The position numbers and the translations under genes are program-made. The notes under the pieces were generated by a model, which searched no databases, was not told the DNA's origin, and saw only the letters and a list, made by a program, of their open reading frames with translations. Source: Escherichia coli (GTDB lineage Bacteria > Pseudomonadota > Gammaproteobacteria > Enterobacterales > Enterobacteriaceae). Taken from it: DNA of 64,000 bases. This document shows positions 2,302-37,503 of the stretch, piece after piece. The DNA lies in assembly GCF_044324785.1 (NCBI RefSeq), contig NZ_CP172127.1. One strand, given 5' to 3'. Positions within the stretch are counted from its first letter, which is position 1; every line of letters begins with the position of its first letter.

Positions 2302-2351
2302 TGGTAGAATTAAATATTGTTGTCTAAATATACATATATGGTTAACTGAAC

Positions 2352-3915: not shown

Positions 3916-4445
3916 TGGGCAATAATCTTGAGTAAGTAAAGATTGTATTTTTTTAATCGAAAACGCCTAGGGTCTCTTTCTTGAAAATCTCTTCCTAAAG
4001 TTTCAGGAGTTGCATTTAAAGTTATTTTAAATATATCTTTTGGCTTTAACTTACTTACCAATTGAGCAATGTCATTCATTTGCTCATATATTTGGCTTGG
4101 TATGGCATAGTCAAGCCAAATTAGAGAAGGTGCAGCGAAGTCGCTTTGAGTAATAAATTCACTGCTACTTAAAGGTTCTTCTCCTAAATCAATACATGAT
4201 ATAGGTTTGTTAAATTTTTGTCGTTTATGAACGTTAGCATCTACCTCTAGAGAGATCATGTTATTGATTTTTAAAGCATTATGCAGTTGTTTGAAGTCTT
4301 CTAGAAAAGGGCCACCAAACCCGATATAAACATAATCGGATATGTTTACATAGTTGTTGAGTTTTCTGAGCAACTCAATGAATAGATTTCTTTCGACAGC
4401 TTTGTGTTGTCGAAGATGATAAGGAATACTTCCCCCAGTACTCAT
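3912..4445 (-). CDS. Hypothetical protein (177 aa), second gene of GHKL-ATPase operon
   Basis: ATG overlaps the stop of the 488-aa ORF by 4 nt (ATGA). Weak glycine-rich stretch YVYIGFGGPF could be a nucleotide- or SAM-binding loop, but no confident family assignment. Confidence 0.55.
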   Translation of the reverse strand: MSTGGSIPYHLRQHKAVERNLFIELLRKLNNYVNISDYVYIGFGGPFLEDFKQLHNALKINNMISLEVDANVHKRQKFNKPISCIDLGEEPLSSSEFITQSDFAAPSLIWLDYAIPSQIYEQMNDIAQLVSKLKPKDIFKITLNATPETLGRDFQERDPRRFRLKKYNLYLLKIIAQ

Positions 4446-5908
4446 TTTTTTGCCCTCTCTAAAAAATCTTCAAAGCAATAATTACCAATTTCTGTCGGAG
4501 GAACAGAATCATCATCGAAAATGAAAGTGGCAACAGTTTTTATCTCACTCAATCTTCTACTAAATTTTATTTGCTTTAAAGGGTCTGTTTCTTTAGGTAT
4601 TGGCAATGTTGGTTTGAAACTATTCCCACCAATGGATCTATGCACCCGAGACCATTTATCTTCAGGTACTATGCTATCTAGTTTGTCGTTTGTAAGAGGA
4701 ATTGTTTTAGATGTGGAACTAAACATTTGCTGGCGTTCTGGAGAGTTACTTTTCCATCTGTTAGTAAAATCTGTAAATATTTTCAAGCCTTCACGCATGA
4801 AATCTTTAGTAGCCAAATAGATATCAGAATTACCATCAATGCCTCTCTTGGTAGTAGTAATAGGTAATTTTTCAGCTTCATTAGATGTAAAAATAGCTAC
4901 GCCTGCAATTCCAACAAATTGTGTGTGATATTGTGGAACTCCTGCTTCACCCCATCCGGTAAGACGTGTCTTGTCCGCATGAACAACAACACGATCATTG
5001 CAGATAATAGTCCATCCGGCTTTCTCGGAAGTGTTACGTCCAGTAAGGAATGAATTTTCCTCATCTTCTGTCACAAAATCTCTATAGAATCCAACTGCGA
5101 TCTTTATTGAAACTCCATTAGTTTCACCTCTGTAAAAATAAGGCGTGATACCACCTTTTTTCGCTGACACAAGAGCTTCGGTATCGATAATTAATGATGT
5201 CAGATTTGGCTTGACTTCTATATCATTAATATAGACCTTGAAACCTTTATTAAGAATTAGGCTATAATGGTTTGAAACAGAATTGATTAATTTTTGTTGA
5301 AAATCACGATCAACTTTGAAATGGTTTTTTACATCGTCTCTGAGATCGTTAACTATAATTTTTACGCCCGTTGTTTTTAAATCGACATTACCACGTTCGA
5401 GATCTAGTTTCCAGTTTTTATCATTGGATAACCATTCTGGAGAAATTGTAACTTTAAATTCCTCGTCTTTTGTTTTACTTAATACTTGCGATGAAGTGCC
5501 CAACTTAAAAATAGCTCGCTTCATACCTATCCCATAAACACCAATGGTTGGGATATTATCTATGTCTCTTTCATTTGGTCTTCCCATTCGGAAAGCATAG
5601 CTTGTTGCTAAGCTTCCCGAAATTCCGCCACAATTATCTTCAATTGTAAAACCATCTTCATTAAAATTTATTTTTGAGTAAAAACCGTGGTATTTATTTT
5701 CTTCGTTTATTTCTTCATTCGATGATGAAATGGAACGAAGAGCGCCATCAAGACAGTTGTCTAATAAGTCAAGAATAGCATCTTGGAGTTCGATATCCCT
5801 GGTTAACATTTCTACAAAGAAACGTTTTGCAGGAAAAGCTTCGATGATATCGTTTGCCATAGTTATTTTAGTTCCATCTGTGTGATTACTTATAGATATG
5901 TTTACCAT
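4442..5908 (-). CDS. GHKL-superfamily (MutL/GyrB/MORC-like Bergerat fold) ATPase (488 aa)
   Basis: N-box AILDLLDNCLDGA, G1 box IEDNCGGISG and G2 box IGVYGIGMKRA occur in the expected order and spacing in the N-terminal ~130 residues. C-terminal ~350 residues unassigned. First gene of a 3-gene coupled operon. Confidence 0.7.
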   Translation of the reverse strand: MVNISISNHTDGTKITMANDIIEAFPAKRFFVEMLTRDIELQDAILDLLDNCLDGALRSISSSNEEINEENKYHGFYSKINFNEDGFTIEDNCGGISGSLATSYAFRMGRPNERDIDNIPTIGVYGIGMKRAIFKLGTSSQVLSKTKDEEFKVTISPEWLSNDKNWKLDLERGNVDLKTTGVKIIVNDLRDDVKNHFKVDRDFQQKLINSVSNHYSLILNKGFKVYINDIEVKPNLTSLIIDTEALVSAKKGGITPYFYRGETNGVSIKIAVGFYRDFVTEDEENSFLTGRNTSEKAGWTIICNDRVVVHADKTRLTGWGEAGVPQYHTQFVGIAGVAIFTSNEAEKLPITTTKRGIDGNSDIYLATKDFMREGLKIFTDFTNRWKSNSPERQQMFSSTSKTIPLTNDKLDSIVPEDKWSRVHRSIGGNSFKPTLPIPKETDPLKQIKFSRRLSEIKTVATFIFDDDSVPPTEIGNYCFEDFLERAKK

Positions 5909-6136
5909 AAAACAAGGTACAGATCATCGATGTTTAGCACAACATCTTGAGAGTTTCTTGGTAGCATGAGGGGGATTATGCCGCTTATTTTATGATTTTC
6001 AGCTTTGTGCTAATGCATCTAACTGGTGCATGAGTTTGCATTCGCTTTTATTTCAAAGCATGTGGGGGCGTGCTAGTGTTGGTAGAGCTCTGATTTCCTG
6101 ATGCAACTGCATTAAAACCGCCCCATGAAGCGGGCG

Positions 6137-6155
6137 GGCGAGGCGGGGAAAGCAC
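6137..6155. other. cos: P2-type cos site (19-nt cohesive end GGCGAGGCGGGGAAAGCAC)
   Basis: Exact 19-mer present in the GC-rich spacer between the cargo operon and the portal gene Q, where cos lies in P2. The P2 cohesive-end sequence is recalled from memory. Confidence 0.7.
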
Positions 6156-6297
6156 TGCGCGCTGGCGGTGGTGCTGATTTTATTTTTTCAGCGTCTCAGC
6201 GCGTCGTGACGGCGCTTAGTCTGCCCGTTGAGGCGTTGGTGTGTCTGCGGGGTGTTTTGTGCGGTGGTGAGCGTGTGAGGGCGTGATGACGGGGTGT

Positions 6298-6320
6298 AAA
6301 AAAGCCGCCCGCAGGCGGCG
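6298..6320 (-). terminator. Rho-independent terminator downstream of Q
   Basis: Minus-strand hairpin CGCCGCC-TGC-GGGCGGC followed by a T6 run, immediately after the Q stop codon. Confidence 0.65.
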
Positions 6321-6324
6321 ATGT

Positions 6325-7359
6325 TCAGCCGTTGTCAGTGTCCAGTGAGTAGTTTTTAAATCGGATGACCTCCTGACCGAGCCAGCCGTTTATCTCGCGG
6401 ATCCTGTCCTGTAACGGGATAAGCTCATTGCGGACAAAGACCTTTGCCACTTTCTCAATATCACCCAGCGACCCGACGTTCTCCGGCTTGCCGCCCATCA
6501 ACTGAAAGGGGATGCGGTGCGCGTCCAGCAGGTCTGCGGCGCTGGCTTTTTTGATATTAAAAAAATCGTCTTTCGTCGCCACTTCACTGAGCGGGATAAT
6601 TTTAATGCCGTCGGCTTTTCCCTGCGGGGCGTAGAGAAACAGATTTTTAAAGTTGTTGCGGCCTTTCGACTTCACCATGTTTTCGCGGAGCATTTCGATA
6701 TCGTTGCGATCCTGCACGGCGTCGGTGACGTACATGATGTATCCGGCATGTGCGCCGTTTTCGTAATACTTGCGGCGGAACAGCGTGGCCGACTCATTCA
6801 GCCAGGCAGAGTTAAGGGCGCTGAGATATTCCGGCAGGCCGTACAGCTCCTGATTGATATCCGGCTCCAGCAGGTGAAATACGGAGCCGGGCGCGAAGGC
6901 TGTCGGTTCGTTGAAGGACGGCACCCACCAGTAAACATCCTCTTCCACCCCACGGCGGGTATATTTTGCCGGTGAGGTTTCCAGTCTGATGACCTTACCG
7001 GTGGTGCTGTAACGCTTTTCCAGAAACGCATTGCCGAACACCAGAAAATCCAGCACAAAGCGGCTGAAATCCTGCTGGGAAAGCCACGGATGCGGGATAA
7101 ATGTCGAGGCCAGAATATTGCGTTTGACGTAAATCGGTGAGCTGTGATGCACGGCAGCACGCAGACTTTTTGCCAGCCCGGTAAAGCTGACCGGCGGCTC
7201 ATACCATCTGCCGTTACTGATGCATTCGACGTAATCCAGAATGTCACGGCGGTCGAGTACCGGCACCGGCTCGCCAAAGGTGAATGCCTCCATTTTCGGG
7301 GCGCTGGCAGTCATTTTTTTTGCCGCAGGTTGCGGTGTTTTCCCTTTTTTCTTGCTCAT
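6325..7359 (-). CDS. Q: Portal protein gpQ (344 aa)
   Basis: Size, position next to cos and terminase, and sequence are typical of the P2 portal protein. Confidence 0.9.
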   Translation of the reverse strand: MSKKKGKTPQPAAKKMTASAPKMEAFTFGEPVPVLDRRDILDYVECISNGRWYEPPVSFTGLAKSLRAAVHHSSPIYVKRNILASTFIPHPWLSQQDFSRFVLDFLVFGNAFLEKRYSTTGKVIRLETSPAKYTRRGVEEDVYWWVPSFNEPTAFAPGSVFHLLEPDINQELYGLPEYLSALNSAWLNESATLFRRKYYENGAHAGYIMYVTDAVQDRNDIEMLRENMVKSKGRNNFKNLFLYAPQGKADGIKIIPLSEVATKDDFFNIKKASAADLLDAHRIPFQLMGGKPENVGSLGDIEKVAKVFVRNELIPLQDRIREINGWLGQEVIRFKNYSLDTDNG

Positions 7360-15059: not shown

Positions 15060-15504
15060 GTTTAAGCGTTTTGAAGACCGGCTGACCGGACTGACTGAGT
15101 CGCTGTCACCGTCAGGGCGTCGGCGACTGAGCGCCGAACTGGCGAAACGTCTGCGGCAGAGTCAGCAGCGTCGGGTGATGGCACAGAAAGCCCCGGATGG
15201 CACACCCTATGCGCCACGCCAGCAGCAGAGCGCCAGAAAAAAGACCGGTCGTGTTAAGCGAAAAATGTTTGCGAAACTTATCACCAGTCGTTTTTTGCAT
15301 ATCCGCGCCAGCCCGGAACAGGCATCAATGGAATTTTACGGCGGGAAGTCGCCGAAAATCGCCAGTGTGCATCAGTTCGGTCTGTCGGAAGAAACCCGGA
15401 AAGACGGTAAGAAAATTGATTATCCGGCGCGTCCTCTGCTCGGCTTTACCGGTGAGGATGTGCAGATGATTGAAGAGATTATCCTGGCTCACCTTGAGCG
15501 TTAG
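15052..15504 (+). CDS. S: Tail completion protein gpS (150 aa)
   Basis: Position and size. Overlaps the R stop. Confidence 0.85.
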   Translation: MNEFKRFEDRLTGLTESLSPSGRRRLSAELAKRLRQSQQRRVMAQKAPDGTPYAPRQQQSARKKTGRVKRKMFAKLITSRFLHIRASPEQASMEFYGGKSPKIASVHQFGLSEETRKDGKKIDYPARPLLGFTGEDVQMIEEIILAHLER

Positions 15505-16131
15505 TTTTATCCAGGCAGAGGCTGATGCGCAATTAAACATTGAGCGGCCATGCTGGTCGCTCAATGTTTAGAGGTTTATGAGTGATTTTTATTTGATGCT
15601 TTGTATTCTAAAACCTTCTTATTGGCGTAAAAGAATTTTGTATATGACAGGAATATAACCAGACCTGAAGTGAAATAGACGAGGGATAGTATTAATAATG
15701 CTTTTTTGTGACTGTTATTATCTTTAATCTCCTGGCTTAACCATTCGGAGTCCTCCTCGTTTAGCTGTAAGAGCTTATTGCAGGCGATCTCAGGAAGTGT
15801 GTCTTTTATAAATACGTTTTGCAGTCTCTTGCAATCGGCAAGGCTATAAGTTTTATTAAATTCAACTGCTTTATTTTTGAAGGATAAAAGAACTTTGTCA
15901 CTATAAACATAGTACATCATGTTTTTATATGGTATGCCTATGGCATCCCTTACTATAACGGATTGTACGTTGTGTATGTAACATGCGAGGAGAATGTAAA
16001 AAATACTGGCCAGAATTACAATTATTGTTTTAATTATGTGTAGACTGGCCCCCTGAATCTCCAGACAACCAATATCACTTAAATAAGTGATAGTCTTAAT
16101 ACTAGTTTTTAGACTAGTCATTGGAGAGCAG

Positions 16132-16497
16132 ATGATTGATGTCTTAGGACCGGAGAAACGCAGACGGCGTACTACACAGGAAAAGATCGCTATTGTTCAG
16201 CAGAGTTTTGAACCGGGAATGACGGTCTCCCTTGTTGCCCGGCAACACGGTGTGGCAGCCAGCCAGTTATTTCTCTGGCGCAAGCAATACCAGGAGGGAA
16301 GTCTTACTGCTGTGGCCGCAGGAGAGCAGGTCGTTCCTGCCTCTGAACTTGCTGCTGCCATGAAGCAGATTAAAGAACTCCAGCGCCTGCTCGGCAAAAA
16401 AACGATGGAAAATGAACTCCTTAAAGAAGCCGTTGAATACGGGCGTGCAAAAAAGTGGATAGCGCACGCGCCCTTATTGCCCGGGGATGGGGAGTAA
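16132..16497 (+). CDS. insC: IS2 transposase OrfA, InsC (121 aa)
   Basis: Start [24 protein letters not shown] with upstream GGAGAG Shine-Dalgarno. HTH-containing N-terminus. The GTG at 16087 in the ORF track is rejected as the start. Confidence 0.9.
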
Positions 16498-17360
16498 GCT
16501 TAGTCAGCCGTTGTCTCCGGGTGTCGCGTGCGCAGTTGCACGTAATTCTCAGACGAACCGATGACTGGAAAGATGGTCGCCGCAGCCGTCACTCAGATGA
16601 TACGGATGTGCTTCTCCGTATACACCATGTTATCGGAGAGCTGCCCACGTATGGTTATCGTCGGGTATGGGCGCTGCTTCGCAGACAGGCCGAACTTGAT
16701 GGTATGCCTGCGATCAATGCCAAACGTGTTTACCGGATCATGCGCCAGAATGCGCTGTTGCTTGAGCGAAAAACCGCTGTACCGCCATCGAAACGGGCAC
16801 ATACTGGCAAAGTGGCCGTGAAAGAAAGCAATCAACGATGGTGCTCTGACGGGTTCGAGTTCCGCTGTGATAACGGAGAAAAACTGCGAGTCACGTTCGC
16901 GCTGGACTGCTGTGACCGTGAGGCACTGCACTGGGCAGTCACTACGGGCGGCTTCGACAGTGAAACAGTACAGGACGTAATGCTGGGAGCGGTGGAACGC
17001 CGCTTCGGCAACGAGCTTCCGGCGTCTCCAGTAGAGTGGCTGACGGATAATGGTTCATGCTACCGGGCTAATGAAACACGGCAGTTTGCCCGGATGTTGG
17101 GGCTTGAACCGAAGAACACGGCGGTGCGGAGTCCGGAGAGTAACGGCATAGCAGAGAGCTTCGTGAAAACGATAAAGCGTGACTACATCAGTATCATGCC
17201 TAAACCAGACGGGTTAACGGCAGCAAAGAACCTTGCAGAGGCGTTCGAGCATTATAACGAATGGCATCCGCATAGTGCACTGGGTTATCGCTCGCCACGG
17301 GAATATCTGCGGCAGCAGGCCAGTAATGGGTTAAGTGATAACAGGTGTCTGGAAATATAG
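16455..17360 (+). CDS. insD: IS2 transposase OrfB, InsD (301 aa, DDE catalytic domain)
   Basis: Overlaps insC in the -1 frame, the typical IS3-family frameshift arrangement. Translation [19 protein letters not shown].... Confidence 0.9.
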
Positions 17361-17780
17361 GGGCAAATCCAATGTGTGGTGGTTTTGTTATGTCACCCCA
17401 GATGCGAGTAAGAAAAAAATACGATGTTTTTAGTTTTCCATCAATCAGTCCCTGCTGTATCATTCTCACATTTTCAATGCCTGATACATTGATTCCGTTA
17501 ATTATTTTAAATAGTTGAATGTCGCGCCACTCGCGGTCAAGTCTTTTTAATTTTTTGTCTGAATATCCAAAATTGAAATAATGTGCAATAAGCCTCATAA
17601 GGTTACTTTTACCAAAGCTAAAAAATGCTAATACTGCAAAGCTACAAAGGAAAAAAACGATTAGCCCCCACACATTAGTCACATTATAGCTGACCATTAC
17701 GCTCTCCTTGAATGTTGTCTGGTAGTTCTACAAATGAATCCAGATAGCATAACTTTTATATATTGTGCAATCTCACATGC

Positions 17781-20206: not shown

Positions 20207-22525
20207 ATGAGCACAAAATTCAGAACCGTTATCACCACTGCCGGTGCAGCAAAGCTGGCAGCGGCAACCGCACCGGGAGGGCGGAAGGTCAACATTACCA
20301 CGATGGCCGTCGGGGATGGCGGTGGTAAATTGCCTGTCCCGGATGCCGGACAGACCGGGCTTATCCACGAAGTCTGGCGACATGCGCTGAACAAAATCAG
20401 CCAGGACAAACGAAACAGTAATTATATTATCGCAGAGCTGGTTATTCCGCCGGAGGTGGGCGGTTTCTGGATGCGTGAGCTTGGCCTGTACGATGATGCG
20501 GGAACGTTAATTGCTGTGGCGAACATGGCCGAAAGTTATAAGCCAGCTCTCGCCGAAGGCTCAGGGCGTTCGCAGACCTGTCGCATGGTCATCATCGTCA
20601 GCAGTGTGGCCTCAGTGGAGCTGACCATTGACACCACAACAGTGATGGCGACGCAGGATTACGTTGATGACAAAATTGCAGAGCACGAACAGTCACGACG
20701 TCACCCGGACGCCTCGCTGACCGCCAAAGGTTTTACTCAGTTAAGCAGTGCGACCAACAGCACGTCTGAAACACTGGCCGCAACGCCGAAAGCGGTAAAG
20801 GCCGCGTATGACCTTGCTAACGGGAAATATACTGCGCAGGATGCCACCACAGCGCGAAAAGGTCTTGTCCAGCTCAGTAGTGCCACCAACAGCACGTCTG
20901 AAACGCTCGCTGCAACACCAAAAGCGGTAAAAGCAGCATATGACCTGGCTAACGGGAAATATACCGCACAGGACGCCACCACCGCGCGAAAAGGCCTTGT
21001 CCAGCTAAGTAGCGTCACCAACAGCGATTCTGAAACGCTTGCGGCAACGCCAAAGGCGGTTAAGACAGCGTATGACCTTGCTAACGGGAAATACACTGCA
21101 CAGGATGCCACCACAGCGCGAAAAGGGCTTGTCCAGCTCAGTAGCGCCACCAACAGTGATTCTGAAACCCTCGCGGCAACGCCAAAAGCAGTGAAGTCTG
21201 CCTATGACAATGCTGAAAAACGTCTTCAGAAAGATCAGAACGGTGCGGATATTCCGGGAAAGGATACCTTCACGAAAAATATCGGTGCCTGTCGTGCTTA
21301 TAGCGGCGCTTTGAGCACTGAAGCCGGAAACTGGACAACCGCTCAGTTTATTGAATGGCTGGATTCCCGTGGTGCATTTAATCATCCGTACTGGATGTGC
21401 AAAGGCTCCTGGTCATATGCAAATAACAAAATCATTACGGATACCGGATGTGGTGATATCCACCTGGCTGGTTGTGTCGTCGAGGTCATGGGAACTAAAT
21501 CTGCAATCACTATCCGAGTGACCACGCCGACAACATCAAGCGGTGGCGGTACAACCAGCGCGCAATTCACTTACATTAATCATGGGGACGGCTACTCCCC
21601 CGGCTGGCGTCGTGACTGGAATCGTCAGGGCGACGCAATGACCGGAACGATTAATCAGGATGGCGGAAGCCAGAATGCCTATATGTCTACGGCCTTATGT
21701 TCAGGCACCAGAGGCGGCAAAAAATATCTCAGAAAGTTTCGTGGTGGAGAAGGAGACACTATCTGGCATGAAACAGTACAGGGCGGGGTAGTTCGCTGGG
21801 CGACTGGTAATACTGATGCTCAGGAAGAATTATCACTCAGCTCCGCTTATGGTCTCCGTTCAAGAGGTGAGATTACATCAAGCAGTGCTAATGGTCTGCG
21901 CATTGCTTATGGCAATTATGGATTCTTTATCAGGAATGATGGCAGCAGCACTTATTTTATGTTGACTAAATCAGGTGACAGATTAGGCACTTATAATAAT
22001 TTAAGACCACTGATTATAAATGATGCCACGGGTGCTGTATCAATGGGGCATGGCCTGAGTGTTACTGGTGATATTGCCTCAAGTACCAAAGTACGTGCCG
22101 GTAGCGGGAAAAAATTCACGGTCAGCAGCAGTAATACATCCACGAAGGAAGCCGCATTCAATTTGTGGGGAAACTCAAGTCGTCCGGTGGTGGCTGAATT
22201 AGGTGATGATGCAGGCTGGCATTTTTACAGTCAGAGAAATACAGATAACAGCATCACTTTTGCTGTTAACGGGCAGGTATCACCATCTAACTATAGTAAT
22301 TTTGATTCACGCTATGTCCGGGATATCCGGCTTGGTGGTGCTGCCACATACAAACCTGCGAACAATGGCATGACATGGACACATCAGGCACCGTCCGGGT
22401 GTGTATATTCCGGCATTATTGTTCAGGATACCGGCTCAAACTCTGCCGATAACATTGGTGGCGTATATTACAGACCGGTGCAGAAATACATTAACGGGAC
22501 ATGGTATAACGTGGCACAGGTATAA
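20207..22525 (+). CDS. H: Tail fibre protein gpH (772 aa) with internal tandem repeats and divergent distal half
   Basis: Conserved N-terminus MSTKFRTVITTAGAAKLAAA, then a repeat block, then an AT-richer C-terminal half. Confidence 0.85.
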   Translation: MSTKFRTVITTAGAAKLAAATAPGGRKVNITTMAVGDGGGKLPVPDAGQTGLIHEVWRHALNKISQDKRNSNYIIAELVIPPEVGGFWMRELGLYDDAGTLIAVANMAESYKPALAEGSGRSQTCRMVIIVSSVASVELTIDTTTVMATQDYVDDKIAEHEQSRRHPDASLTAKGFTQLSSATNSTSETLAATPKAVKAAYDLANGKYTAQDATTARKGLVQLSSATNSTSETLAATPKAVKAAYDLANGKYTAQDATTARKGLVQLSSVTNSDSETLAATPKAVKTAYDLANGKYTAQDATTARKGLVQLSSATNSDSETLAATPKAVKSAYDNAEKRLQKDQNGADIPGKDTFTKNIGACRAYSGALSTEAGNWTTAQFIEWLDSRGAFNHPYWMCKGSWSYANNKIITDTGCGDIHLAGCVVEVMGTKSAITIRVTTPTTSSGGGTTSAQFTYINHGDGYSPGWRRDWNRQGDAMTGTINQDGGSQNAYMSTALCSGTRGGKKYLRKFRGGEGDTIWHETVQGGVVRWATGNTDAQEELSLSSAYGLRSRGEITSSSANGLRIAYGNYGFFIRNDGSSTYFMLTKSGDRLGTYNNLRPLIINDATGAVSMGHGLSVTGDIASSTKVRAGSGKKFTVSSSNTSTKEAAFNLWGNSSRPVVAELGDDAGWHFYSQRNTDNSITFAVNGQVSPSNYSNFDSRYVRDIRLGGAATYKPANNGMTWTHQAPSGCVYSGIIVQDTGSNSADNIGGVYYRPVQKYINGTWYNVAQV
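20726..21225 (+). repeat. About 3.8 tandem copies of a 132-bp (44-aa) unit inside H
   Basis: Peptide unit QLSSATNS(T/D)SETLAATPKAVKAAYDLANGKYTAQDATTARKGLV recurs with Q codons at 20738, 20870, 21002 and 21134. Confidence 0.9.
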
Positions 22526-22528
22526 TTT

Positions 22529-23056
22529 ATGCAGCATTTGATAAATATAACCGCGGGTAATCCAAAAACGGTTGAACAATATCAATTGACAAAGGACTTT
22601 GATGTTGTCTGGTTTTTTACAGAAGATGGTAAGAACTGGTACGAAGAACAAAAGTATTTTGCTGATGACACGATAAAAATAGCGTACGACAAGGATAATA
22701 TTATCCGCTATGTGGAAAAAGATGTGACAGCTATCAGACCAGATGGATTAAGTGTGGTTGAAGTGGCGGATATTACTGCTAACCGACGGGCGGACATTTC
22801 AGGGAACTGGATGTTTAAGGACGGCAAAGTGATTAAACGCATTTATACGGCAGAGGAATTGCAGCAGCAGGCAGAAAACCGGAAAGCCAGACTTCTTGCA
22901 GATGCTGAATCCGTGATTTTGCCACTGGAGCGCGCTGTCAGGCTGAACATGGCAACAGATGAGGAGCGTAGCCGACTGGAAGCATGGGAACGCTACAGTG
23001 TTCTGGTCAGCCGTGTGGATCCTGCAAATCCTGAATGGCCGGAAATGCCGCAATAA
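22529..23056 (+). CDS. G: Tail fibre assembly chaperone gpG (175 aa)
   Basis: Immediately downstream of H. AT-rich like the distal part of H. Confidence 0.8.
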
Positions 23057-23381
23057 GTGATATGATCTCTTGTGTTAGTTAACATAGCTATAGTACAGAG
23101 TAAGGCCTAATCTGACAGTCCGCTCTGTGCTAGGAGCGGACATTATCAACATCATGCTATGTTAATGTATAAAGTGAAGATAAATTGATATAATAAGGCC
23201 ACCATGAATATTTCAGAACCTTGTCAAAAGGTTTGCACATACTCTAGTCTTGCAATGTGTAGTTGATAGTTCCACTGAGGAGGTTCTTCGACATTCTTTA
23301 TAAAAATGTACATTTTCATCAATAATAAGAGGTAAAAGGGCTTTAATGGTTTTTTGTGGATGTTATTTCTACTCATAAATT

Positions 23382-23410
23382 TTGAGATAAGTATTGAGTT
23401 GAGATAAAAT
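23382..23410 (+). promoter_or_regulatory. Putative sigma70 promoter for the 175-aa cargo gene
   Basis: -35 TTGAGA at 23382..23387, 17-bp spacer, -10 TAAAAT at 23405..23410. AAGGA Shine-Dalgarno about 8 nt before the ATG at 23446. Confidence 0.4.
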
Positions 23411-23445
23411 TAAACTCGTTAAATTCACCTTTAAAAGGATAAAGC

Positions 23446-23973
23446 ATGGACTGGAAAGATCTTGCATCAACCGCTGTGTATACAGGTATGACTGATGAAA
23501 ATGAAAGCATATGGGAACGTGTTGATGGGGTTGACGTTGCCTTCATAGGTGCCTTTCTTACTGCGCACTTGAGCCTTGAAAAGTATATTACTGATTATCT
23601 TGGATTAAGATATCCTTCGTTAGCTTGGGGTGATGCAAAACTCACATTTTCACAAAAAATAGCTTTAATACAACATGAGCCTGCAACCCCCCCTTATGAT
23701 GAAATATATTTAAGAATAAAAGACTTTAACAGCATAAGAAATAAAATCAGTCATCAATTGAATTATCAGATTACGGATAAAGAAAAAAGTAAGTTTGTGG
23801 ACTTCTACATGAAGATTACTAAAGCCAGTAAAACTAAACCAAATATTGATATTGATAACATGGCAGATTTGTTGGATTTTTTCGTATCGATGACAAAATC
23901 CTATTTTGCTAGTGCTATTTCTTGTTATCACTATAATAAAAAGGTTGCAGGTAAAAGTAATAAAATTGATTAA
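23446..23973 (+). CDS. Hypothetical cargo protein (175 aa) with Rx4H HEPN-like motif
   Basis: Very AT-rich gene in the G-to-FI gap, where P2 carries Z/fun. Motif IRNKISH (R-x4-H) in the middle of the protein. Good Shine-Dalgarno. Confidence 0.55.
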   Translation: MDWKDLASTAVYTGMTDENESIWERVDGVDVAFIGAFLTAHLSLEKYITDYLGLRYPSLAWGDAKLTFSQKIALIQHEPATPPYDEIYLRIKDFNSIRNKISHQLNYQITDKEKSKFVDFYMKITKASKTKPNIDIDNMADLLDFFVSMTKSYFASAISCYHYNKKVAGKSNKID

Positions 23974-24271
23974 TAAAACTGGACTTAGGGATAATTAATA
24001 TATAGACGTTCTATCATTTTTAGAGTGTGCGGCAGCTCCATACATTCATGCGGATGTCAGCACCTCGCTCAAAGCAGACAGTCAGATTTGATAGCGTTTG
24101 GACTATGTAAATAGTCAGTTGGAAAATGAGTGAGTACAAATCAGGACAGGCGGGCGAATTGCCCGCCTTTTCTTTATCTGTTGTTTCATCCACTGACCAG
24201 CCAGGTCAAATAGCGTCTCATGCTCTGCCCAACAGAAAATAGTTGCACCCATTAACCACGGAGTTAAACGG

Positions 24272-25462
24272 ATGAGTGACTATCATCACGGCGTGCAGGT
24301 GCTGGAGATTAACGACGGCACCCGCGTCATTTCCACCGTATCCACGGCCATTGTCGGCATGGTCTGCACGGCCAGCGATGCGGATGCGGAAACCTTCCCC
24401 CTCAATAAACCGGTGCTGATTACCAATGTGCAGAGCGCAATTGCAAAGGCTGGTAAAAAAGGCACGCTGGCGGCATCGTTGCAGGCCATCGCCGACCAGT
24501 CAAAACCGGTCACCGTTGTCGTGCGTGTGGAAGACGGCACCGGCGACGACGAGGAAACGAAACTCGCGCAGACCGTTTCCAATATCATCGGCACCACCGA
24601 CGAAAACGGTCAGTACACCGGACTGAAAGCCCTGCTGGCGGCGGAGTCGGTAACCGGTGTTAAACCGCGTATTCTCGGCGTGCCGGGACTGGACACCAAA
24701 GAGGTGGCTGTTGCACTGGCATCAGTCTGTCAGAAGCTGCGCGCTTTCGGGTATATCAGCGCATGGGGCTGTAAAACTATTTCCGAGGTGAAAGCCTACC
24801 GCCAGAATTTCAGCCAGCGTGAGTTGATGGTCATCTGGCCGGATTTCCTCGCATGGGATACGGTCACCAGTACCACCGCCACCGCGTATGCCACCGCCCG
24901 TGCGCTGGGTCTGCGCGCTAAAATCGACCAGGAGCAGGGCTGGCATAAAACACTGTCCAACGTTGGGGTGAACGGTGTTACCGGCATCAGCGCCTCTGTA
25001 TTCTGGGATTTGCAGGAGTCCGGCACCGATGCTGACCTGCTTAATGAGTCAGGCGTCACTACGCTGATTCGCCGCGACGGTTTCCGCTTCTGGGGTAACC
25101 GTACCTGCTCTGATGATCCGCTGTTCCTCTTTGAAAACTACACCCGCACCGCGCAGGTGCTGGCCGACACGATGGCTGAGGCGCACATGTGGGCGGTGGA
25201 CAAGCCCATCACCGCAACGCTGATTCGCGACATCGTTGACGGCATCAATGCCAAATTCCGTGAGCTGAAAACAAACGGCTATATCGTGGATGCGACCTGC
25301 TGGTTCAGCGAAGAATCCAACGATGCGGAAACCCTCAAGGCCGGAAAACTGTATATCGACTACGACTATACACCGGTGCCTCCTCTCGAAAACCTGACCC
25401 TGCGCCAGCGTATTACCGATAAATACCTGGCAAATCTGGTCACCTCGGTTAACAGCAATTAA
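24272..25462 (+). CDS. FI: Tail sheath protein gpFI (396 aa)
   Basis: Size and position. Confidence 0.9.
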   Translation: MSDYHHGVQVLEINDGTRVISTVSTAIVGMVCTASDADAETFPLNKPVLITNVQSAIAKAGKKGTLAASLQAIADQSKPVTVVVRVEDGTGDDEETKLAQTVSNIIGTTDENGQYTGLKALLAAESVTGVKPRILGVPGLDTKEVAVALASVCQKLRAFGYISAWGCKTISEVKAYRQNFSQRELMVIWPDFLAWDTVTSTTATAYATARALGLRAKIDQEQGWHKTLSNVGVNGVTGISASVFWDLQESGTDADLLNESGVTTLIRRDGFRFWGNRTCSDDPLFLFENYTRTAQVLADTMAEAHMWAVDKPITATLIRDIVDGINAKFRELKTNGYIVDATCWFSEESNDAETLKAGKLYIDYDYTPVPPLENLTLRQRITDKYLANLVTSVNSN

Positions 25463-32508: not shown

Positions 32509-32709
32509 AATTCTCTCGTTCTGATGACAGGTCAGATCCGCTTCACCTGATGAAGCGGCCAGGGGAGTGCCCCCACTTTAAGGGCGGGCATTGTAGCGCA
32601 ATCGTTGGGGTTGGCTCCAGTGTAATTGTGATGAGCTTTTCGATGCCTGGCGTACAATTGACATCAGAATTGAGTATATTTACGACCGTGAATGCTAAGG
32701 AGTTAAAAC

Positions 32710-33315
32710 ATGTGGATGTTAAAGAAGGGAATCACGCTGGCTCTGTTGGTTCTGTTTTCTCTGCCCGCTACTGCCGGTCTTTCGCTGGAGGAGACTGCTC
32801 GTAAGGTGATTATCGGCTTTCAGCAAAAAGATGCTCAATTAATCAACTCGTTAATTGATAAAAAAACGGGGTTGTATGTTCTCTTCCAGCGTGGCGCTTC
32901 GATGGATGTCGAAAATTTTAAGTCAATTGATTTTAAAACGCCTGTTCCCGAGTATTTGCTGTGGCCTTCGGCAGGGGAACATATTCCGCGAGATGAAGAG
33001 TTTGATAAGAAAACTATCCCGGAATTTGACTGTGAACGTGGTTGGAATAAGCACGGATATTTTATTAGCAGCAGCGATACACACCATAAAGTCAGCCGTA
33101 ATTTGGTCTTCACGCAGATGTTTGGTTCACCGCGAAACACTATTTCTGATGCGCAGATTGCCGCAGCGCGTCGAATGGAGTACGGGGCCGTGCGTGTGGT
33201 CGCTGCGCCAGAAGGGGGTAGCGATGGACTGGTATTTTATTTAAGTCAACTTTACGGTTATGACCGTGACTGGTATCTGACGGTGGTGGATCAGATTGGT
33301 GATTGTGGGGCGTGA
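32710..33315 (+). CDS. Hypothetical secreted protein (201 aa)
   Basis: N-terminal signal peptide MLKKGITLALLVLFSLPATA. No recognisable family. In an islet that, as far as I recall, is absent from the K-12 yegP-yegQ interval. Confidence 0.6.
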   Translation: MWMLKKGITLALLVLFSLPATAGLSLEETARKVIIGFQQKDAQLINSLIDKKTGLYVLFQRGASMDVENFKSIDFKTPVPEYLLWPSAGEHIPRDEEFDKKTIPEFDCERGWNKHGYFISSSDTHHKVSRNLVFTQMFGSPRNTISDAQIAAARRMEYGAVRVVAAPEGGSDGLVFYLSQLYGYDRDWYLTVVDQIGDCGA

Positions 33316-33345
33316 TAAAGATTTATTCGCCCGCAAGCAGTGATG

Positions 33346-34746
33346 CTATTTAAAAGGTATGTAACCCCTTAATCTGTTGTGAAGTTCCGGATTGCGGGTA
33401 AAAAGCGCCTGAAGTTGCTGACGCTGGGGAGCATTCGGTTGAATGCCCGAAAGATTGAAATTGCGTTGCCATATTGCGAGCTGTTTATCTGCAAATTCTT
33501 CAGTTAGTTTGTGTTGCGATTGCAGAAGAAGAATTAAACCGTCCCATTTGTTCAAGTTATGATACAACCGACAATATGCGCAAGCATGTTTAACTGACGG
33601 TGCGTTTTCCAGCAACTGACGTATTTCCTCGAACGTGAGCGGAACGCGACACCATACACAGATGTTAACCATAAATCGAAGCCCGGAGGCGTCCGGGTTA
33701 GCCAGTGTGGTCAGAATAATCCCTTTGGCACCACCATCAGGATTGGCTTTCGCAAGAATATACATAGCGGCTAATCGCAGTGGGAATACATCCTGTGATA
33801 ATCCCCATTCAGCCAGTTTTAAAATATTGGCATCATGAATGGAGTCCAGCCCGTATAAAGCTGCCCGGCGCTGTGAGGGAGTATATTCAGTCGAGGTGAC
33901 AACATGACGCCAGAATTGCGCAACATCCATGACGTCATTAAGCATGTTTTTAGCGCGTAGACGGATCAACATATTGTTATCCAGCAGTAATGCGCTGTAC
34001 AACGCCGGAGGAATTTCTATAGCTCGGTCAGTAAGGCTAAACAACGTTGCTTGTCGAATACGCGGCCAGCGGTCTTTTAACAGACGAGTTAATACCGCTT
34101 CGCTTAACGGTAATTGTTGACGCAGCCAGTGGGTGACCGCCAGCATTCGTAAACCTTCGTCGGGCTGCTTGAGTATTAAAAGCAGCGAAGATTCATCATT
34201 AAAGTAGCCATATTCAATCAGCGTTTGTAATACTGCGCGGGAGAGTTTTTTATCAGGGCAAGTAAGCCAACACGTTAATTGTGGACGGCTATTTTCTGTC
34301 AATAAAAATCTAAGTATCTCGTCTACAAATGCACGGTGATCGTAACGCTGGCATTGGAGAAGGTTACGTATCATGGGAAGATTAACGGCAAATGCCGCTG
34401 CATTCTTATCCTTCTTTAAATGACGTAACGCTATGGTTGCAGCAAGGCGAACCTCTTTTACCCAGTCATTAGCTGCAAGTAATAATTCTTCTATAGCTGC
34501 AACATCCTCTTTTTGTCCCAGACATTGCACGGCCTTTTCTCGTATATATCCATTGTGGTGATGGGTAAGCTGGCAAAGAACCAGAGTATCGTTGAGATCA
34601 CAATCATGCGCTATATAATTGCCTGGATCGGCTATCATCGCCTGGAGTTGTTGCTGGATAAGAAATAATTCACAGTCAACAGAATTATTCATTTCGACAT
34701 TAAACAAAACCCTGCGTGTAAATAATGTACGCAATCCTTTGAGCAT
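33346..34746 (-). CDS. Hypothetical HEAT/ARM-like repeat protein (466 aa)
   Basis: Recurrent approximately VRxxAxxAL helical-repeat signatures (KEVRLAATIALRHL, WPRIRQATLFSL, FPLRLAAMYILAK). Lower GC than flanking core genes. Confidence 0.6.
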   Translation of the reverse strand: MLKGLRTLFTRRVLFNVEMNNSVDCELFLIQQQLQAMIADPGNYIAHDCDLNDTLVLCQLTHHHNGYIREKAVQCLGQKEDVAAIEELLLAANDWVKEVRLAATIALRHLKKDKNAAAFAVNLPMIRNLLQCQRYDHRAFVDEILRFLLTENSRPQLTCWLTCPDKKLSRAVLQTLIEYGYFNDESSLLLILKQPDEGLRMLAVTHWLRQQLPLSEAVLTRLLKDRWPRIRQATLFSLTDRAIEIPPALYSALLLDNNMLIRLRAKNMLNDVMDVAQFWRHVVTSTEYTPSQRRAALYGLDSIHDANILKLAEWGLSQDVFPLRLAAMYILAKANPDGGAKGIILTTLANPDASGLRFMVNICVWCRVPLTFEEIRQLLENAPSVKHACAYCRLYHNLNKWDGLILLLQSQHKLTEEFADKQLAIWQRNFNLSGIQPNAPQRQQLQALFTRNPELHNRLRGYIPFK

Positions 34747-34868
34747 AATTTTCCTTATCAGTTATGAGGAGAAAACTCATTTCATGATTAATAATTTCTT
34801 GAGGGATAGTAACTCTGTGGTGAGAGAAAATAAAGCCGGACGCCAACAACCCACGCCCGGCATCGTAA

Positions 34869-35201
34869 TTACGTATTGTCTTTCACCGTCTGGCTTGTGC
34901 CATTGGCTTTAACGGAGGCAATTCCGGTTTCACGAGATTGCGCGGTGGCGTACATCTGGCTGGAGCCGATAATTTGATGATTGGCGGCTTTCAGATTGAA
35001 ATAGAATTTGCCGTTGCTTGCCGTTTTTTTCTCATAGCGTTCTTCTTGCGGGCTGTTGCTACGCACCGACGCGATGCCCTTTTCCGCAGAGGCTTTTGAT
35101 GTATACAGCTCGCTGGTGAGGATAGTCTCACCATTGCCCGCTTTTAGCACAAACCGAAATTGATTATCACTGCTCTTACTGAGTTCAAACCAACCAGCCA
35201 T
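34869..35201 (-). CDS. yegP: DUF1508-family protein YegP (110 aa)
   Basis: MAGWFELSKSSDNQFRFVLKAGNGE.... ORF track start at 35240 trimmed. Confidence 0.85.
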   Translation of the reverse strand: MAGWFELSKSSDNQFRFVLKAGNGETILTSELYTSKASAEKGIASVRSNSPQEERYEKKTASNGKFYFNLKAANHQIIGSSQMYATAQSRETGIASVKANGTSQTVKDNT

Positions 35202-35380
35202 AATGACTCCTTGATTGAAATTGCGTATCGAAAACAGCATCTAAAAGGACTGTTTACCGATTAAAGTATGAGCGATTTTCTGGTGCCTGCCAGGGCGAAG
35301 AGATAATGTCAGTTTGCTGACCATGCGTGGAATAATGTTGCCGGATGCGGCGTGAATGCCTTCTCCGGCAGGTAAAAATG

Positions 35381-36103
35381 TTAAACGATGCGGCAGGCGT
35401 CGGCTTCCCAGCGGTAACCGACGCCGTAAACGGCGCGGATAAATGACTGTTCGGCGTCGAGAGATTCCAGCTTGCGACGCAGGTTTTTAATGTGGCTGTC
35501 GATGGTGCGGTCGGTTACTACGCGGTAGTCGTCATAAAGATGATTGAGCAATTGCTCGCGGGAGAACACTTTTCCTGGTTCATGAGAGAGCGTTTTCAGC
35601 AGACGAAATTCCGCAGGCGTCAGGTCAAGCATTTTACCGCGCCATGAAGCCTGAAAACGACCTTCGTCGATAATCAACGGGCTTTCAGCATCCTGTTGCT
35701 GCAACTCACGCTGCGGTTTGCAACGGCGCAAAATGGTTTTGACGCGCGCTACCACTTCCCGTGGGCTGTACGGTTTGCAGATGTAGTCATCTGCGCCAAT
35801 TTCCAGCCCCAGCAGGCGGTCGATCTCTTCGATTTTTGCTGTCACCATCACGATCGGAATGTCAGAAAAATGACGAATCTCCCGACACAGCGTCAGGCCA
35901 TCGGTACCTGGCAGCATCAGATCGAGCAGGATCAGATCCGGCGGCGACTGGTGAACGTAGGGCAGTACCTGATCGCCGTGGCTGATAAGCGTCGGCGCAT
36001 AGCTCGCAGCACGCAGATAATCAATGAGCAACTGCCCCAGCTTCGGTTCATCTTCCACGATCAAAATACGCGGTGTGTTTTCGTCGATTGGTAACTCGGT
36101 CAT
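35381..36103 (-). CDS. baeR: Envelope-stress response regulator BaeR (240 aa)
   Basis: OmpR-family receiver plus winged-helix domains. Overlaps the baeS stop. Confidence 0.95.
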
Positions 36104-37503
36104 ACTTCTCTCTGTAAATCCCGTTCCAGCGGTAACTCTACTGTAATGCTTACCCCGCCAAAAGGCGAATGGGCAGCAATAATGCGGCCATTATGGGCTT
36201 CAACAATGTTCAGGCAAATCGCCAGCCCCAGCCCGGAACCGCCGCTGGCGCGGTTGCGGGAACCTTCGGTGCGATAAAAACGTTCAAACAATTTTTGTAG
36301 CTGATCGTCACTGACGCCCGGCGCGCTGTCAGCAAAGGTCAGGCGCACCGTTTTGTCGTGCTGCTCGGCAGAGATTTTCAGGCTGCCGCCACTGTCAGTG
36401 TAGCGCAGGCTGTTTTCCAGTAAGTTATTGAATAACTGCATTAAACGGTCGCGATCGCCAAATACGGTAATACTGTCTGGCAGGGAAAATTGCAGTTTCA
36501 GGCCACGGCTGGCGAATCGTTCGCGAAATGCGCCGCCCGCCACTTCCAGCAGTGGGATCAAATCTACCGGTGCTTTTTGATAGGCGAGAGCGCCTTCATC
36601 AGACATCGACAACTGATGGAGATCGTCAACCAGTTTGGTCAGTGTACCGACCTCCGCCTGTAAAGACGCCACCGTCTCCGGCGTGAATTTACGCACGCCA
36701 TCCTGAATGGCTTCCAGTTCACCGCGCAGCACCGCTAATGGCGTACGCAGTTCGTGAGAAATATCGGCCATAAAATCGCGCCGCATTTGCTGGTTTTTCT
36801 CCAGCGTGCTGGCAAGCTGGTTGAAGTCTTGCGCCAGTTTGCCCAGTTCATCTTCACTGGTGGGCGTCACGCGGGTTGTGAAATCGCCCGCCGCCAGTTT
36901 GTGCGTGCCGTCCACCAGCCGTTTGACCGGGGCCAACAGACCACGCGCCAGCAGAAAGGTGGCGAGCGCCGCGAGTAACGTTGCCAGGGCGACAATCAGC
37001 CAGCTGGTTTGCCGCTGTTGTTTATCGAAATTGATATCAGTATTGCGGGTCAGTCGCTCAACAGGGGAGGCAATCACCGCACCCACTTCCGCACCGTTGA
37101 CCAGAATGGGTCGCCGTGTACCGTCAGGTGGAATCGGCGCTCGCGGACCAACCAGCACTTTGTTGTTTTGATCAACCACCCAGAACTGAGTACGCCAGCC
37201 GTGTGGTGGCATACCCGGGCCGGGTTTATCTTCCGAATTATCGTGTTCAAATGAGCGCAGGATCTGAAAGACAAAGCGATCATTGTTGCGCAGGAAGCGC
37301 CAGTTGCCATGCTGCGCATACTGCTCGCCAAGCGCATCACTTAACAGTTGTAATCGCTGTTCATTACCATGCTTGATGTAATCAATAAAGCCACGCTCAA
37401 AACTGATACGCACCGCCCAGTGCATACTGATCAGCAAGACAATGCAGGTGGCGAAAATCGCCAGAAACAGTTTACCGGTAATACCGGGTCGCCAGAACTT
37501 CAT
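36100..37503 (-). CDS. baeS: Sensor histidine kinase BaeS (467 aa)
   Basis: Transmembrane segments, HAMP, H-box HELRTPL and ATPase domain. Upstream of baeR. Confidence 0.95.

What the first reader, a model, noticed from the sequence alone, without database searches (positions are those of the whole stretch)
20726..22525. Tail fibre H has a 132-bp tandem repeat block and an AT-rich distal half paired with its own chaperone G
About 3.8 copies of a 44-aa unit lengthen the fibre shaft relative to P2. The distal, receptor-binding part of H and the following G gene are visibly more AT-rich than the proximal part of H, which suggests a swapped host-range module. Repeat number is likely to vary by slippage or recombination.
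Basis: seen in the sequence. Interest (0 to 1): 0.35.

Follow-up and report, generated by a model that had tools for sequence, protein, structure and literature searches.

The report
Mosaic P2-type tail fibre with repeats
This is an ordinary but real tail-fibre gene of a P2-like prophage in E. coli: four copies of a known 44-residue fibre repeat (P2 has two), a far end and helper protein exchanged for another common type, and a repeat number that differs between related prophages.

Summary
H (20207-22525, 772 aa) carries four in-frame 132-nt units (20714-21241) of the Pfam repeat Phage_fiber_2; canonical P2 H has two. It is not an assembly artefact: 143 complete E. coli genomes hold a match covering at least 80% of H/G. 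The 30 best listed are single gap-free pieces, 29 of them the same 2850-nt length.

The units are old paralogues, 72-85% identical as DNA, with differences mostly at third codon positions. Relatives with the same 427-aa distal part have 3, 4, 5 or 6 units. Adjacent units in these relatives are 100%, 98%, 92% or 90% identical. Copy number therefore changes by occasional whole-unit duplication and loss, not by frequent slippage.

Identity to P2 (97.7%) ends at 20931. The middle of H resembles Mu S'/P1 Sv' and the end resembles Mu S. The last ~65 aa and the N-terminal domain of G form a co-varying sub-module, shared at 95-97% DNA identity with 19 Peduovirus records.

The AT-richness is real but not diagnostic of the swap, because P2's own distal H and G N-half are equally AT-rich.

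This is a new member of a well-known kind and of low interest. A side observation: the AT-rich ORF after G (23446-23973) may be a solo HEPN defence gene.

The parts
20207..22525 (+). Gene H, P2-type long tail fibre protein, 772 aa
   Evidence: ORF. Pfam Phage_tail_fib, 4 x Phage_fiber_2 and Gp34_trimer. Follows gene I as in P2. 100% identical to the annotated 'tail fiber protein' of E. coli EC77.
20207..20659 (+). N-terminal collar/baseplate-attachment domain (aa 1-151)
   Evidence: Pfam PF12571, E 1.6e-58. H aa 1-251, which includes this domain, is 96% identical to P2 H.
20714..21241 (+). Four tandem 132-nt / 44-aa Phage_fiber_2 units (20714-20845, 20846-20977, 20978-21109, 21110-21241)
   Evidence: Unit pairs differ mainly at third codon positions; for example units 2 and 3 differ at 20 nt, 16 of them third positions, giving 3 aa changes.
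20931..20931 (+). End of the 97.7%-identical stretch shared with P2 (which starts upstream of V). It lies inside unit 2, just after the ...AATPKAVK motif
   Evidence: blastn of window against P2. Exit sequences after the last unit compared.
21206..21667 (+). Mu S'/P1 Sv'-like segment (aa 334-487)
   Evidence: PDB 8ju3 (Mu S/S'), stretch E 1.9e-69. 67.5% identical to Mu Sv'. About 85% identical to lambdoid side tail fibres and 80.6% to P1 Sv'.
21827..22018 (+). Gp34_trimer-like domain (aa 541-604)
   Evidence: Pfam PF21446, E 5.1e-26. Matches T4 gp34 chains 4uxe and 5nxf and Mu S 5yvq.
22091..22522 (+). C-terminal tip region (aa 629-772), homologous to the P2 H tip (59%) and the Mu S tip
22328..22843 (+). 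Exchangeable sub-module: last 65 aa of H plus the N-terminal domain of G. The breakpoint against Yersinia phage vB_YpM_115 is at about 22335
   Evidence: vB_YpM_115 is 98.5% identical up to H nt 2129 and then differs. Tip and G N-domain vary together. 22295-23056 is 95-97% identical in 19 Peduovirus records.
22529..23056 (+). Gene G, tail fibre assembly protein (175 aa). Variable AT-rich N-domain 22529-22843; conserved C-domain 22844-23053
   Evidence: Pfam Caudo_TAP, E 6.7e-35. PDB 5yvq_B (Mu U), E 2.2e-82 over the full length. Against P2 G, N-domain 68% and C-domain 84% identical. GC 0.394 against 0.543.
23446..23973 (+). Neighbouring cargo ORF (175 aa, GC 0.333) in the Z/fun position between G and FI. 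Not part of the fibre, but part of the same AT-rich variable island (21601-24550)
24148..24168 (+). Terminator-like hairpin followed by a T run, downstream of the cargo ORF and upstream of FI
   Evidence: This is a consensus match only.

Best explanation
H is the long tail fibre of a P2-like (Peduoviridae) prophage of E. coli, and G is its assembly chaperone.

The fibre is modular:
- A P2-type N-terminal domain docks on the baseplate.
- Four 44-residue Phage_fiber_2 units follow.
- Next comes a Mu S'/P1 Sv'-like segment, then a gp34-trimer-like domain.
- A C-terminal tip binds the receptor.

By homology with the solved Mu S-U complex, the variable N-terminal domain of G binds the tip. The conserved C-terminal domain of G drives trimerisation.

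Compared with canonical P2, everything from the middle of repeat unit 2 to just upstream of FI has been exchanged by recombination. The conserved repeat motif (...SETLAATPKAVK) and the linker after it serve as joints shared among P2, L-413C, Mu and P1 fibres. The last ~65 residues of H and the G N-domain travel together as a smaller unit.

The number of repeat units changes by occasional whole-unit duplication or loss through unequal homologous recombination. New copies then diverge at synonymous sites. In this allele the four units are old and diverged, so the count is stable.

Shown here: the anatomy, the homologies, the breakpoints, the co-variation and the copy-number polymorphism. Inferred: that extra units lengthen the shaft, the receptor (probably LPS core, as for P2 and Mu), and the recombination mechanism.
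For: Domain content. Gene order V-W-J-I-H-G-(cargo)-FI as in P2. Breakpoints against P2.

Solved relatives: Mu S' 8ju3, Mu S 5yvq, and Mu U 5yvq_B at E 2.2e-82. Division of labour between the Tfa domains: from PMC9608196, which summarises the Mu Tfa work.

Co-variation of tip and G N-domain. The tip+G allele is common in Peduovirus isolates.

Copy number:
- P2 has 2 units and L-413C has 1.
- Among the 120 closest protein clusters, 15 have 3 units, 91 have 4, 12 have 5 and 3 have 6.
- Complete genomes show spans of 737, 869 and 1001 nt for a 5-unit query.
- Adjacent-unit DNA identity is 100% (L005, L006), 98% (L012), 92% (L013), 90% (L014) and 85% at most in the window. All share the same 427-aa distal part at 93-99% identity.
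- 150 diverse H-type fibres carry 0-12 units, and the commonest spacing is 44 aa.

Joints: the P2, L-413C, Mu, P1 and window fibres all leave the repeat right after ...AATPKAVK, into one of two linker types.
Against: No experiment or trimer structure was available. Pf2 repeats were described as structurally uncharacterised, and possibly bead-like rather than rod-like, in PMC3368898. 'Lengthening' is therefore an inference.

One relative (L006) has a tip 86% identical to the window's but a different chaperone type (C-domain 35% identical). Tip-chaperone pairing is therefore not absolute.

The receptor was not tested.
Confidence: 0.85

Rival explanations
1. The repeat block is a contingency locus. 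Frequent slippage or recombination produces a mixed population of fibre lengths within one lysogen or lysate.
For: Copy number differs among close relatives. Two lineages have 100% identical adjacent units.
Against: In this allele adjacent units are 72-85% identical, and the longest exact in-register run between them is 20 nt (26 nt for units two apart). The 30 best-matching complete genomes listed align as single gap-free pieces, 29 of them over exactly 2850 nt. 91 of the 120 closest protein clusters keep 4 units. Corresponding units in different lineages are more alike than neighbouring units within one gene.
Confidence: 0.08
2. The copy-number differences are selectively neutral by-products of unequal recombination and have no effect on host range or adsorption.
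For: Fibres with the same distal 427 aa exist with 3 to 6 units. Across the family, 0-12 units occur. No link with hosts was tested.
Against: Each unit is held at the protein level while synonymous sites diverge. That could reflect folding constraints alone. Nothing here tests function directly.
Confidence: 0.3
3. The AT-rich distal H/G marks a recent import into this prophage from a low-GC donor outside the P2-like phages.
For: GC3 falls from 0.60 to 0.40 along H. The region is one of three AT-rich islands in the prophage.
Against: P2's own distal H and G N-half, and Mu Sv/U, have the same composition. The pieces circulate within Peduoviridae at 95-98.5% DNA identity. The whole gene is in 143 complete E. 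coli genomes.
Confidence: 0.1
4. The repeat count is an assembly artefact.
For: None found.
Against: The units are distinguishable by sequence. The same 4-unit arrangement is present in 143 complete genomes, including a 100% identical copy.
Confidence: 0.01

Closest known systems
Bacteriophage P2 gpH / gpG (NC_001895)
   Same: Same gene order and operon position. H aa 1-251 is 96% identical. Same 44-aa unit. G has the same length (175 aa) and is 74% identical. The H stop to G start spacing is the same.
   Different: Two units instead of four. H aa 252-628 is unrelated. The tip is only 59% identical. The G N-domain is 68% identical. A different linker type follows the last unit.
Yersinia phage vB_YpM_115 H (OR545056) and relatives vB_YpM_46, VB-YPM-4 and P37, isolated on Y. 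pestis EV76
   Same: For vB_YpM_115: 94% protein identity over the whole H, four units, and 98.5% DNA identity up to H nt 2129. The relatives were checked only for the distal part, which is 87-88% identical.
   Different: The last ~62 aa of H and the G N-domain of vB_YpM_115 and VB-YPM-4 are of the P2/L-413C type: 34% and 70% identical to the window.
Peduovirus isolates P24C9, 10W, 11W, P22H1, D8, PhiR44 and fiAA91-ss
   Same: The tip of H plus G (22295-23056) is 95-97% identical as DNA.
   Different: The middle of H differs. For example, fiAA91-ss matches only H nt 1-1376 and then the tip.
Yersinia phage L-413C gpH, described as a four-part mosaic (Garcia et al. 2008, as reported in PMC7460101)
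   Same: P2-like N-terminus, unrelated mosaic middle, weakly P2-like C-terminus. The linker after the repeat is of the same type as in the window.
   Different: One unit only. 913 aa. The middle is different.
Phage Mu fibres S/U and S'/U' (PDB 5YVQ, 8JU3) and P1 S/U
   Same: One Phage_fiber_2 unit followed by the same linker. H aa 329-486 is 67.5% identical to Mu Sv'. H aa 519-770 is 41% identical to Mu S. G is 72% identical to Mu U. The P1 record annotates a 132-nt 'repeated element a1' in S.
   Different: The window has no invertible segment, no Gin/Cin invertase, no inverted second fibre/chaperone pair and no gix-like site. The baseplate-attachment domain is P2-type.

Membership tests
P2-type long tail fibre (gpH) | N-terminal tail-collar fibre domain (PF12571) | tested here: met
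   aa 1-151, E 1.6e-58. H aa 1-251 is 96% identical to P2 H.
P2-type long tail fibre (gpH) | Position in the V-W-J-I-H-G late operon of a P2-like genome | tested here: met
   Neighbouring ORFs and the EC77 and P2 annotations. 97.7% DNA identity to P2 from V into H.
P2-type long tail fibre (gpH) | Phage_fiber_2 (PF03406) repeat(s) after the N-terminal domain | tested here: met
   Four stretches, E 1.5e-77.
P2-type long tail fibre (gpH) | Forms a trimeric fibre on the virion and binds the host receptor | not testable with these tools
   Inferred from homology to Mu S (5yvq) and P2 H only.
Tail fibre assembly protein (Tfa; Caudo_TAP, Mu U / P2 G type) | Caudo_TAP domain, encoded immediately after the fibre gene | tested here: met
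   PF02413, E 6.7e-35. Mu U 5yvq_B, E 2.2e-82 over the full length. Starts 4 nt after the H stop codon.
Tail fibre assembly protein (Tfa; Caudo_TAP, Mu U / P2 G type) | Variable fibre-binding N-domain that tracks the fibre tip, and a conserved C-domain | tested here: met
   The N-domain is 67-71% and the C-domain 80-89% identical to the P2, L-413C, vB_YpM_115, VB-YPM-4, Mu and P1 chaperones. N-domain type follows tip type in 9 of 10 pairs; L006 is the exception.
Invertible host-range switch (Mu G segment / P1 C segment) | Serine invertase gene, inverted crossover sites, and a second inverted fibre-end/chaperone pair | tested here: not met
   tblastn with Mu Gin, Sv' and U' finds no invertase and no second copy in the 64-kb window. 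The best gix-like site has 8 of 26 mismatches. No suitable inverted repeats flank the region.
Contingency (slippage-prone) repeat locus | Near-identical tandem units that allow frequent gain and loss | tested here: not met
   Adjacent units are 72-85% identical, with exact in-register runs of 20 nt at most. The count is constant in the complete genomes listed. Some relatives do have identical adjacent units.
Diversity-generating retroelement target (Mtd-like fibre tip) | Template/variable repeat pair and a reverse transcriptase gene nearby | tested here: not met
   The only direct-repeat family in 20207-23100 is the 132-nt block. The neighbouring ORFs are G, the 175-aa cargo ORF and FI.

The most novel reading that the evidence does not exclude
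The number of Phage_fiber_2 units may be a selected 'length dial'. On this reading, recurrent whole-unit duplications and losses tune fibre reach to the depth of the host's O-antigen or capsule layer. They would act independently of the receptor-binding tip, giving P2-like phages a second, quantitative axis of host-range evolution. The present data show duplications of every age (100% down to about 75% identity between neighbouring units) on one and the same distal module. They do not show any phenotypic effect.
Probability: 0.25. Interest if true: 0.45.

Novelty: new member of a known kind. Interest (0 to 1): 0.2.

Why it matters
The matter is modest. Mosaic tail fibres with matched chaperones are the textbook route of host-range change in P2-, Mu-, P1- and lambda-type phages. 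This allele is already present, and annotated as a tail fibre, in well over a hundred complete E. coli genomes.

The useful products of this check are practical:
- A precise map of exchange points: after ...AATPKAVK in a repeat unit, near H nt 1376, and near H nt 2129, with the G N-domain attached to the last piece. This could guide fibre engineering in P2-like phages and tailocins.
- Evidence that repeat number is a natural variable (1 to 6 in close relatives, up to 12 in the wider family). It could be tested for an effect on adsorption.

Tried and rejected
- Repeat counting: a regular-expression count of units undercounted. It was replaced by an HMM built from the four units.
- Assembly artefact: rejected.
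- Invertible Mu/P1-type switch: rejected.
- DGR-type tip variation: rejected, because there is no second repeat family and no RT gene nearby.
- AT-richness as proof of the swap: rejected, because P2 has the same profile.
- Literature: the BASEL paper had nothing on P2 fibres. Casjens & Grose 2016 and North & Davidson 2021 are not held, so the Tfa domain roles are cited through PMC9608196.
- Structure of the Pf2 unit: no solved structure was found beyond the Mu S chains, whose match covers one unit by sequence. A monomer AlphaFold run of the repeat region was considered and not run, because only four diverse homologues have at least four in-register units and the fibre is an intertwined trimer.
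- Cargo ORF: the AlphaFold model was too poor (pLDDT 53.5) for a fold search. PADLOC and Pfam gave nothing significant.
Full report
CONTEXT. The window is E. coli chromosome. Positions 1 to about 30900 are a P2-like prophage that runs from replication gene A to ogr, next to trhP/yegQ. It is 99.8% identical to the prophage of strain EC77 over 31 kb. The gene order around the finding is V, W, J, I, H (20207-22525), G (22529-23056), a 175-aa ORF (23446-23973), then FI (24272-). This is the P2 late-operon layout.

THE OBSERVATION.
- Tandem Repeats Finder reports a 132-nt period at 20753-21208, with 3.5 copies, 86% matches and score 653.
- The repeat finder reports three 219-nt copies starting at 20726, 20858 and 20990.
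- Pfam finds four Phage_fiber_2 (PF03406) stretches at aa 170-342.
- The in-frame units are 20714-20845, 20846-20977, 20978-21109 and 21110-21241.
- P2 H (669 aa) has two such stretches.

The composition claim also holds, but the fall is graded. GC is 0.558 for aa 1-169, 0.536 for the repeats, 0.510 for aa 343-540 and 0.451 for aa 541-772. It is 0.394 for the N-terminal 105 aa of G and 0.543 for the rest of G. GC3 falls from 0.60 to 0.40 along H, so amino-acid composition is not the only cause. Within the prophage there are three AT-rich islands: 1851-6350, about 15151-16000 (with the IS insertion and the AT-rich orf30-like gene next to it), and 21601-24550.

NOT AN ARTEFACT. 143 complete E. 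coli genomes hold a match covering at least 80% of the 2850-nt H/G stretch. The 30 best listed align as single gap-free pieces, 29 over exactly 2850 nt and one over 2840 nt. EC77 is 100% identical. The four units also differ in sequence, so they could not have been mis-stacked by an assembler.

WHAT THE REPEATS ARE. They are the known 'phage tail fibre repeat' of lambda Stf, P1 S, Mu S and P2 H. The P1 GenBank record annotates a 132-nt 'repeated element a1' in S.

In the window the units are old paralogues:
- Adjacent units are 77%, 85% and 72% identical as DNA.
- Differences are concentrated at third codon positions. Units 2 and 3 differ at 20 nt, 16 of them third positions, giving 3 amino-acid changes.
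- Corresponding units in different lineages are more alike than neighbours within one gene. Window unit 1 is 95% identical to P2 unit 1, window unit 3 is 97% identical to L005 unit 3, and window unit 4 is 93% identical to the last unit of L003.
- Shared polymorphism patches between units suggest some gene conversion.

COPY NUMBER IN RELATIVES.
- Among the 120 closest protein clusters, an HMM of the unit counts 3 units in 15 clusters (728 aa), 4 in 91 (771-772 aa), 5 in 12 (808-819 aa) and 6 in 3 (862-863 aa).
- L-413C has 1 unit and P2 has 2.
- Complete genomes confirm 3-, 4- and 5-unit forms. A 1001-nt query from a 5-unit gene gives spans of 737, 869 and about 1001 nt. Among the 60 best records, 15, 37 and 8 respectively show these spans.
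- All sampled variants carry the same 427-aa distal part, 93-99% identical to the window's.
- Neighbouring units are 100% identical in L005 and L006, 98% in L012, 92% in L013 and 89-90% in L014. Whole-unit duplications of many ages coexist. L003 equals L005 minus its duplicated pair.
- In a wide sample of 150 H-type fibres, clustered at 50% identity, the count runs from 0 to 12. The mode is 1-2, 22 of the 150 have four or more, and the commonest spacing is 44 aa.

Repeat number is therefore a general, slowly turning variable of this fibre family. In the window's allele the longest exact in-register run is 20 nt between adjacent units and 26 nt between units two apart. From my own knowledge, this is at or below the minimal length usually quoted for efficient RecA-dependent exchange in E. 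coli. I therefore expect the 4-unit form to be stable within a culture.

THE SWAPPED MODULE.
- DNA identity to P2 is 97.7% from upstream of V to 20931. Position 20931 lies inside unit 2, just after the ...AATPKAVK codons.
- No similarity is detectable from about 21200 to 22109.
- Similarity is 73-76% over the H tip and G, and resumes at 90.6% from 24064.
- At protein level, H aa 1-251 is 96% identical to P2 H, aa 252-628 is unmatched, aa 629-772 is 59% identical, and G is 74% identical.

The non-P2 part is itself a mosaic:
- aa 334-487 matches the Mu S' fibre (PDB 8ju3). It is 67.5% identical to Mu Sv', 80.6% to P1 Sv' and about 85% to lambdoid side tail fibres.
- aa 541-604 is a gp34-trimer-like domain.
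- aa 544-771 matches Mu S (PDB 5yvq).

Breakpoints against other Peduoviruses lie near H nt 1376 (window about 21582) and H nt 2129 (window about 22335).

The P2, L-413C, Mu, P1 and window fibres all leave the repeat immediately after ...AATPKAVK. They enter one of two conserved linker types:
- The window, L-413C and Mu share '..DNA..RL.K..NGADI..K..F..NIG'.
- P2 and P1 share '..KAP..SP.LTGTPT.PTA.QGTN.TQIANTAFV'.

This fits the idea that the repeat and linker act as homologous joints for exchanging distal modules. The mosaic nature of a P2-like H gene was already described for L-413C (Garcia et al. 2008, as reported in PMC7460101). Hypervariable C-terminal regions that set host range were shown experimentally for P88 and pro147 (PMC5285337).

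H AND ITS CHAPERONE. G is a Caudo_TAP protein. It is homologous over its full length to Mu U in the solved S-U complex (5yvq_B, E 2.2e-82). In that system the variable N-domain of Tfa binds the distal fibre, and the conserved C-domain is proposed to trimerise (PMC9608196, summarising the Mu work).

Across ten fibre/chaperone pairs, the last 65 aa of H and G aa 1-105 fall into the same groups:
- Window, L003 and L005: tip 100% identical, G N-domain 96-100%.
- P2, L-413C, vB_YpM_115, VB-YPM-4 and P1: tips 77-98% identical, G N-domains 90-99%.
- Between the two groups: 34-37% for the tip and 68-71% for the G N-domain.

vB_YpM_115 shares the window's preceding segment (90%) but has the other tip and chaperone. 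So the tip plus G N-domain is exchanged as a unit. One exception is L006, whose tip is 86% like the window's but whose chaperone is of another type. The window's tip+G allele (22295-23056) is 95-97% identical in 19 Peduovirus records, including P24C9, 10W, 11W and fiAA91-ss.

WHAT THE AT-RICHNESS MEANS. P2's own distal H (GC 0.477) and G N-half (0.381, against 0.521 for the C-half) have the same profile, as do Mu Sv, U, U' and Sv' (0.425-0.473). The composition is therefore a long-standing property of this pool of shared distal modules. It does not mark this particular exchange.

ALTERNATIVES EXCLUDED. There is no Mu/P1-type inversion switch. The window has no Gin-like invertase, no inverted second Sv'/U' pair and no gix-like site. 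There is no DGR-like second repeat.

VERDICT. AT-richness is not diagnostic of the swap, and frequent slippage is unlikely in this diverged allele. The feature is a new member of a well-known kind and of low interest.

UNTESTED. The effect of unit number on fibre length and adsorption, the receptor, and the recombination mechanism.

Noticed in passing
window 23446-23973 (+): A 175-aa AT-rich ORF (GC 0.333, GC3 0.278) sits between G and FI, the Z/fun cargo position of P2. It has no significant Pfam or PADLOC hit; it matches PHROG 5483 (unknown function). Only 23 protein clusters were found: the named ones are Enterobacterales and carry only uninformative names ('hypothetical' or 'uncharacterised' protein), and the rest are unnamed metagenome or read-archive entries. 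The family has invariant D93-F94-N95, I97 and R98-N99-K100-I101-S102-H103. This fits the HEPN Rx4H motif and aligns exactly with the R100-H105 catalytic motif of the prophage anti-phage anticodon nuclease HepS (PDB 9oij; profile E 0.026, which is weak). The AlphaFold model is all-helical but of low confidence (pLDDT 53.5). A sigma70-like promoter lies at 23382-23410 and a terminator-like hairpin at 24148-24168. It is a candidate solo HEPN defence gene.
   Followed up: partly
window 23057-24271; loci L001, L003, L005, L007, L008, L012, L015, L017: The G-FI gap is a cargo hotspot. It holds fun(Z) in P2, a TIR_2 protein in L003 and L005, a SIR2 family protein in L015, an HNH endonuclease in L012, a PgrR-like regulator in vB_YpM_115, and an unknown ORF in L-413C. 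A 60%-identical homologue of the window's ORF lies right after a P2-type fibre gene, next to an AbiGi gene (L017). This matches the P2 hotspots described in PMC9122126.
   Followed up: partly
window 16042-17371: A 1330-bp insertion relative to strain EC77 carries an IS3-family transposase (rve, rve_3 and HTH_21 domains; ORF 16455-17360). It interrupts the AT-rich orf30-like gene on the minus strand (remnant 17200-17697). It ends about 400 nt upstream of V, so the V-operon promoter region is probably intact.
   Followed up: partly
window 32600-34834: A 2.2-kb stretch absent from EC77 lies between trhP/yegQ and yegP, outside the prophage. It encodes a 201-aa ORF with a hydrophobic N-terminus and no Pfam hit (32710-33315, +) and a 466-aa HEAT-repeat protein (33346-34746, -). 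About 40 complete E. coli genomes have it.
   Followed up: partly
window about 2350-6300 (EC77 locus L002 3481-6990): The AT-rich island between replication gene A and the portal gene, the old/tin cargo position of P2, is annotated in EC77 as a DNA cytosine methyltransferase, an O-methyltransferase and an ATP-binding protein. It may be a defence or modification cassette. It was not examined.
   Followed up: no
loci L006, L013, L014: The same H type (5-6 units, distal part 93-95% identical to the window's) also occurs in P2-like prophages with a different layout downstream of G. There, gpU and the tape measure gene lie on the opposite strand directly after the chaperone, and the chaperone is a 177-aa type. 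The fibre gene therefore moves between Peduoviridae backbones.
   Followed up: partly
window 34835-45259 against L002: The chromosomal flank (yegP, baeSR, mdtABCD) is only 96.7% identical to EC77, while the prophage is 99.8% identical. The best complete-genome match to the flank is 98.4%. The prophage is therefore much more similar between these strains than their chromosomes are.
   Followed up: no
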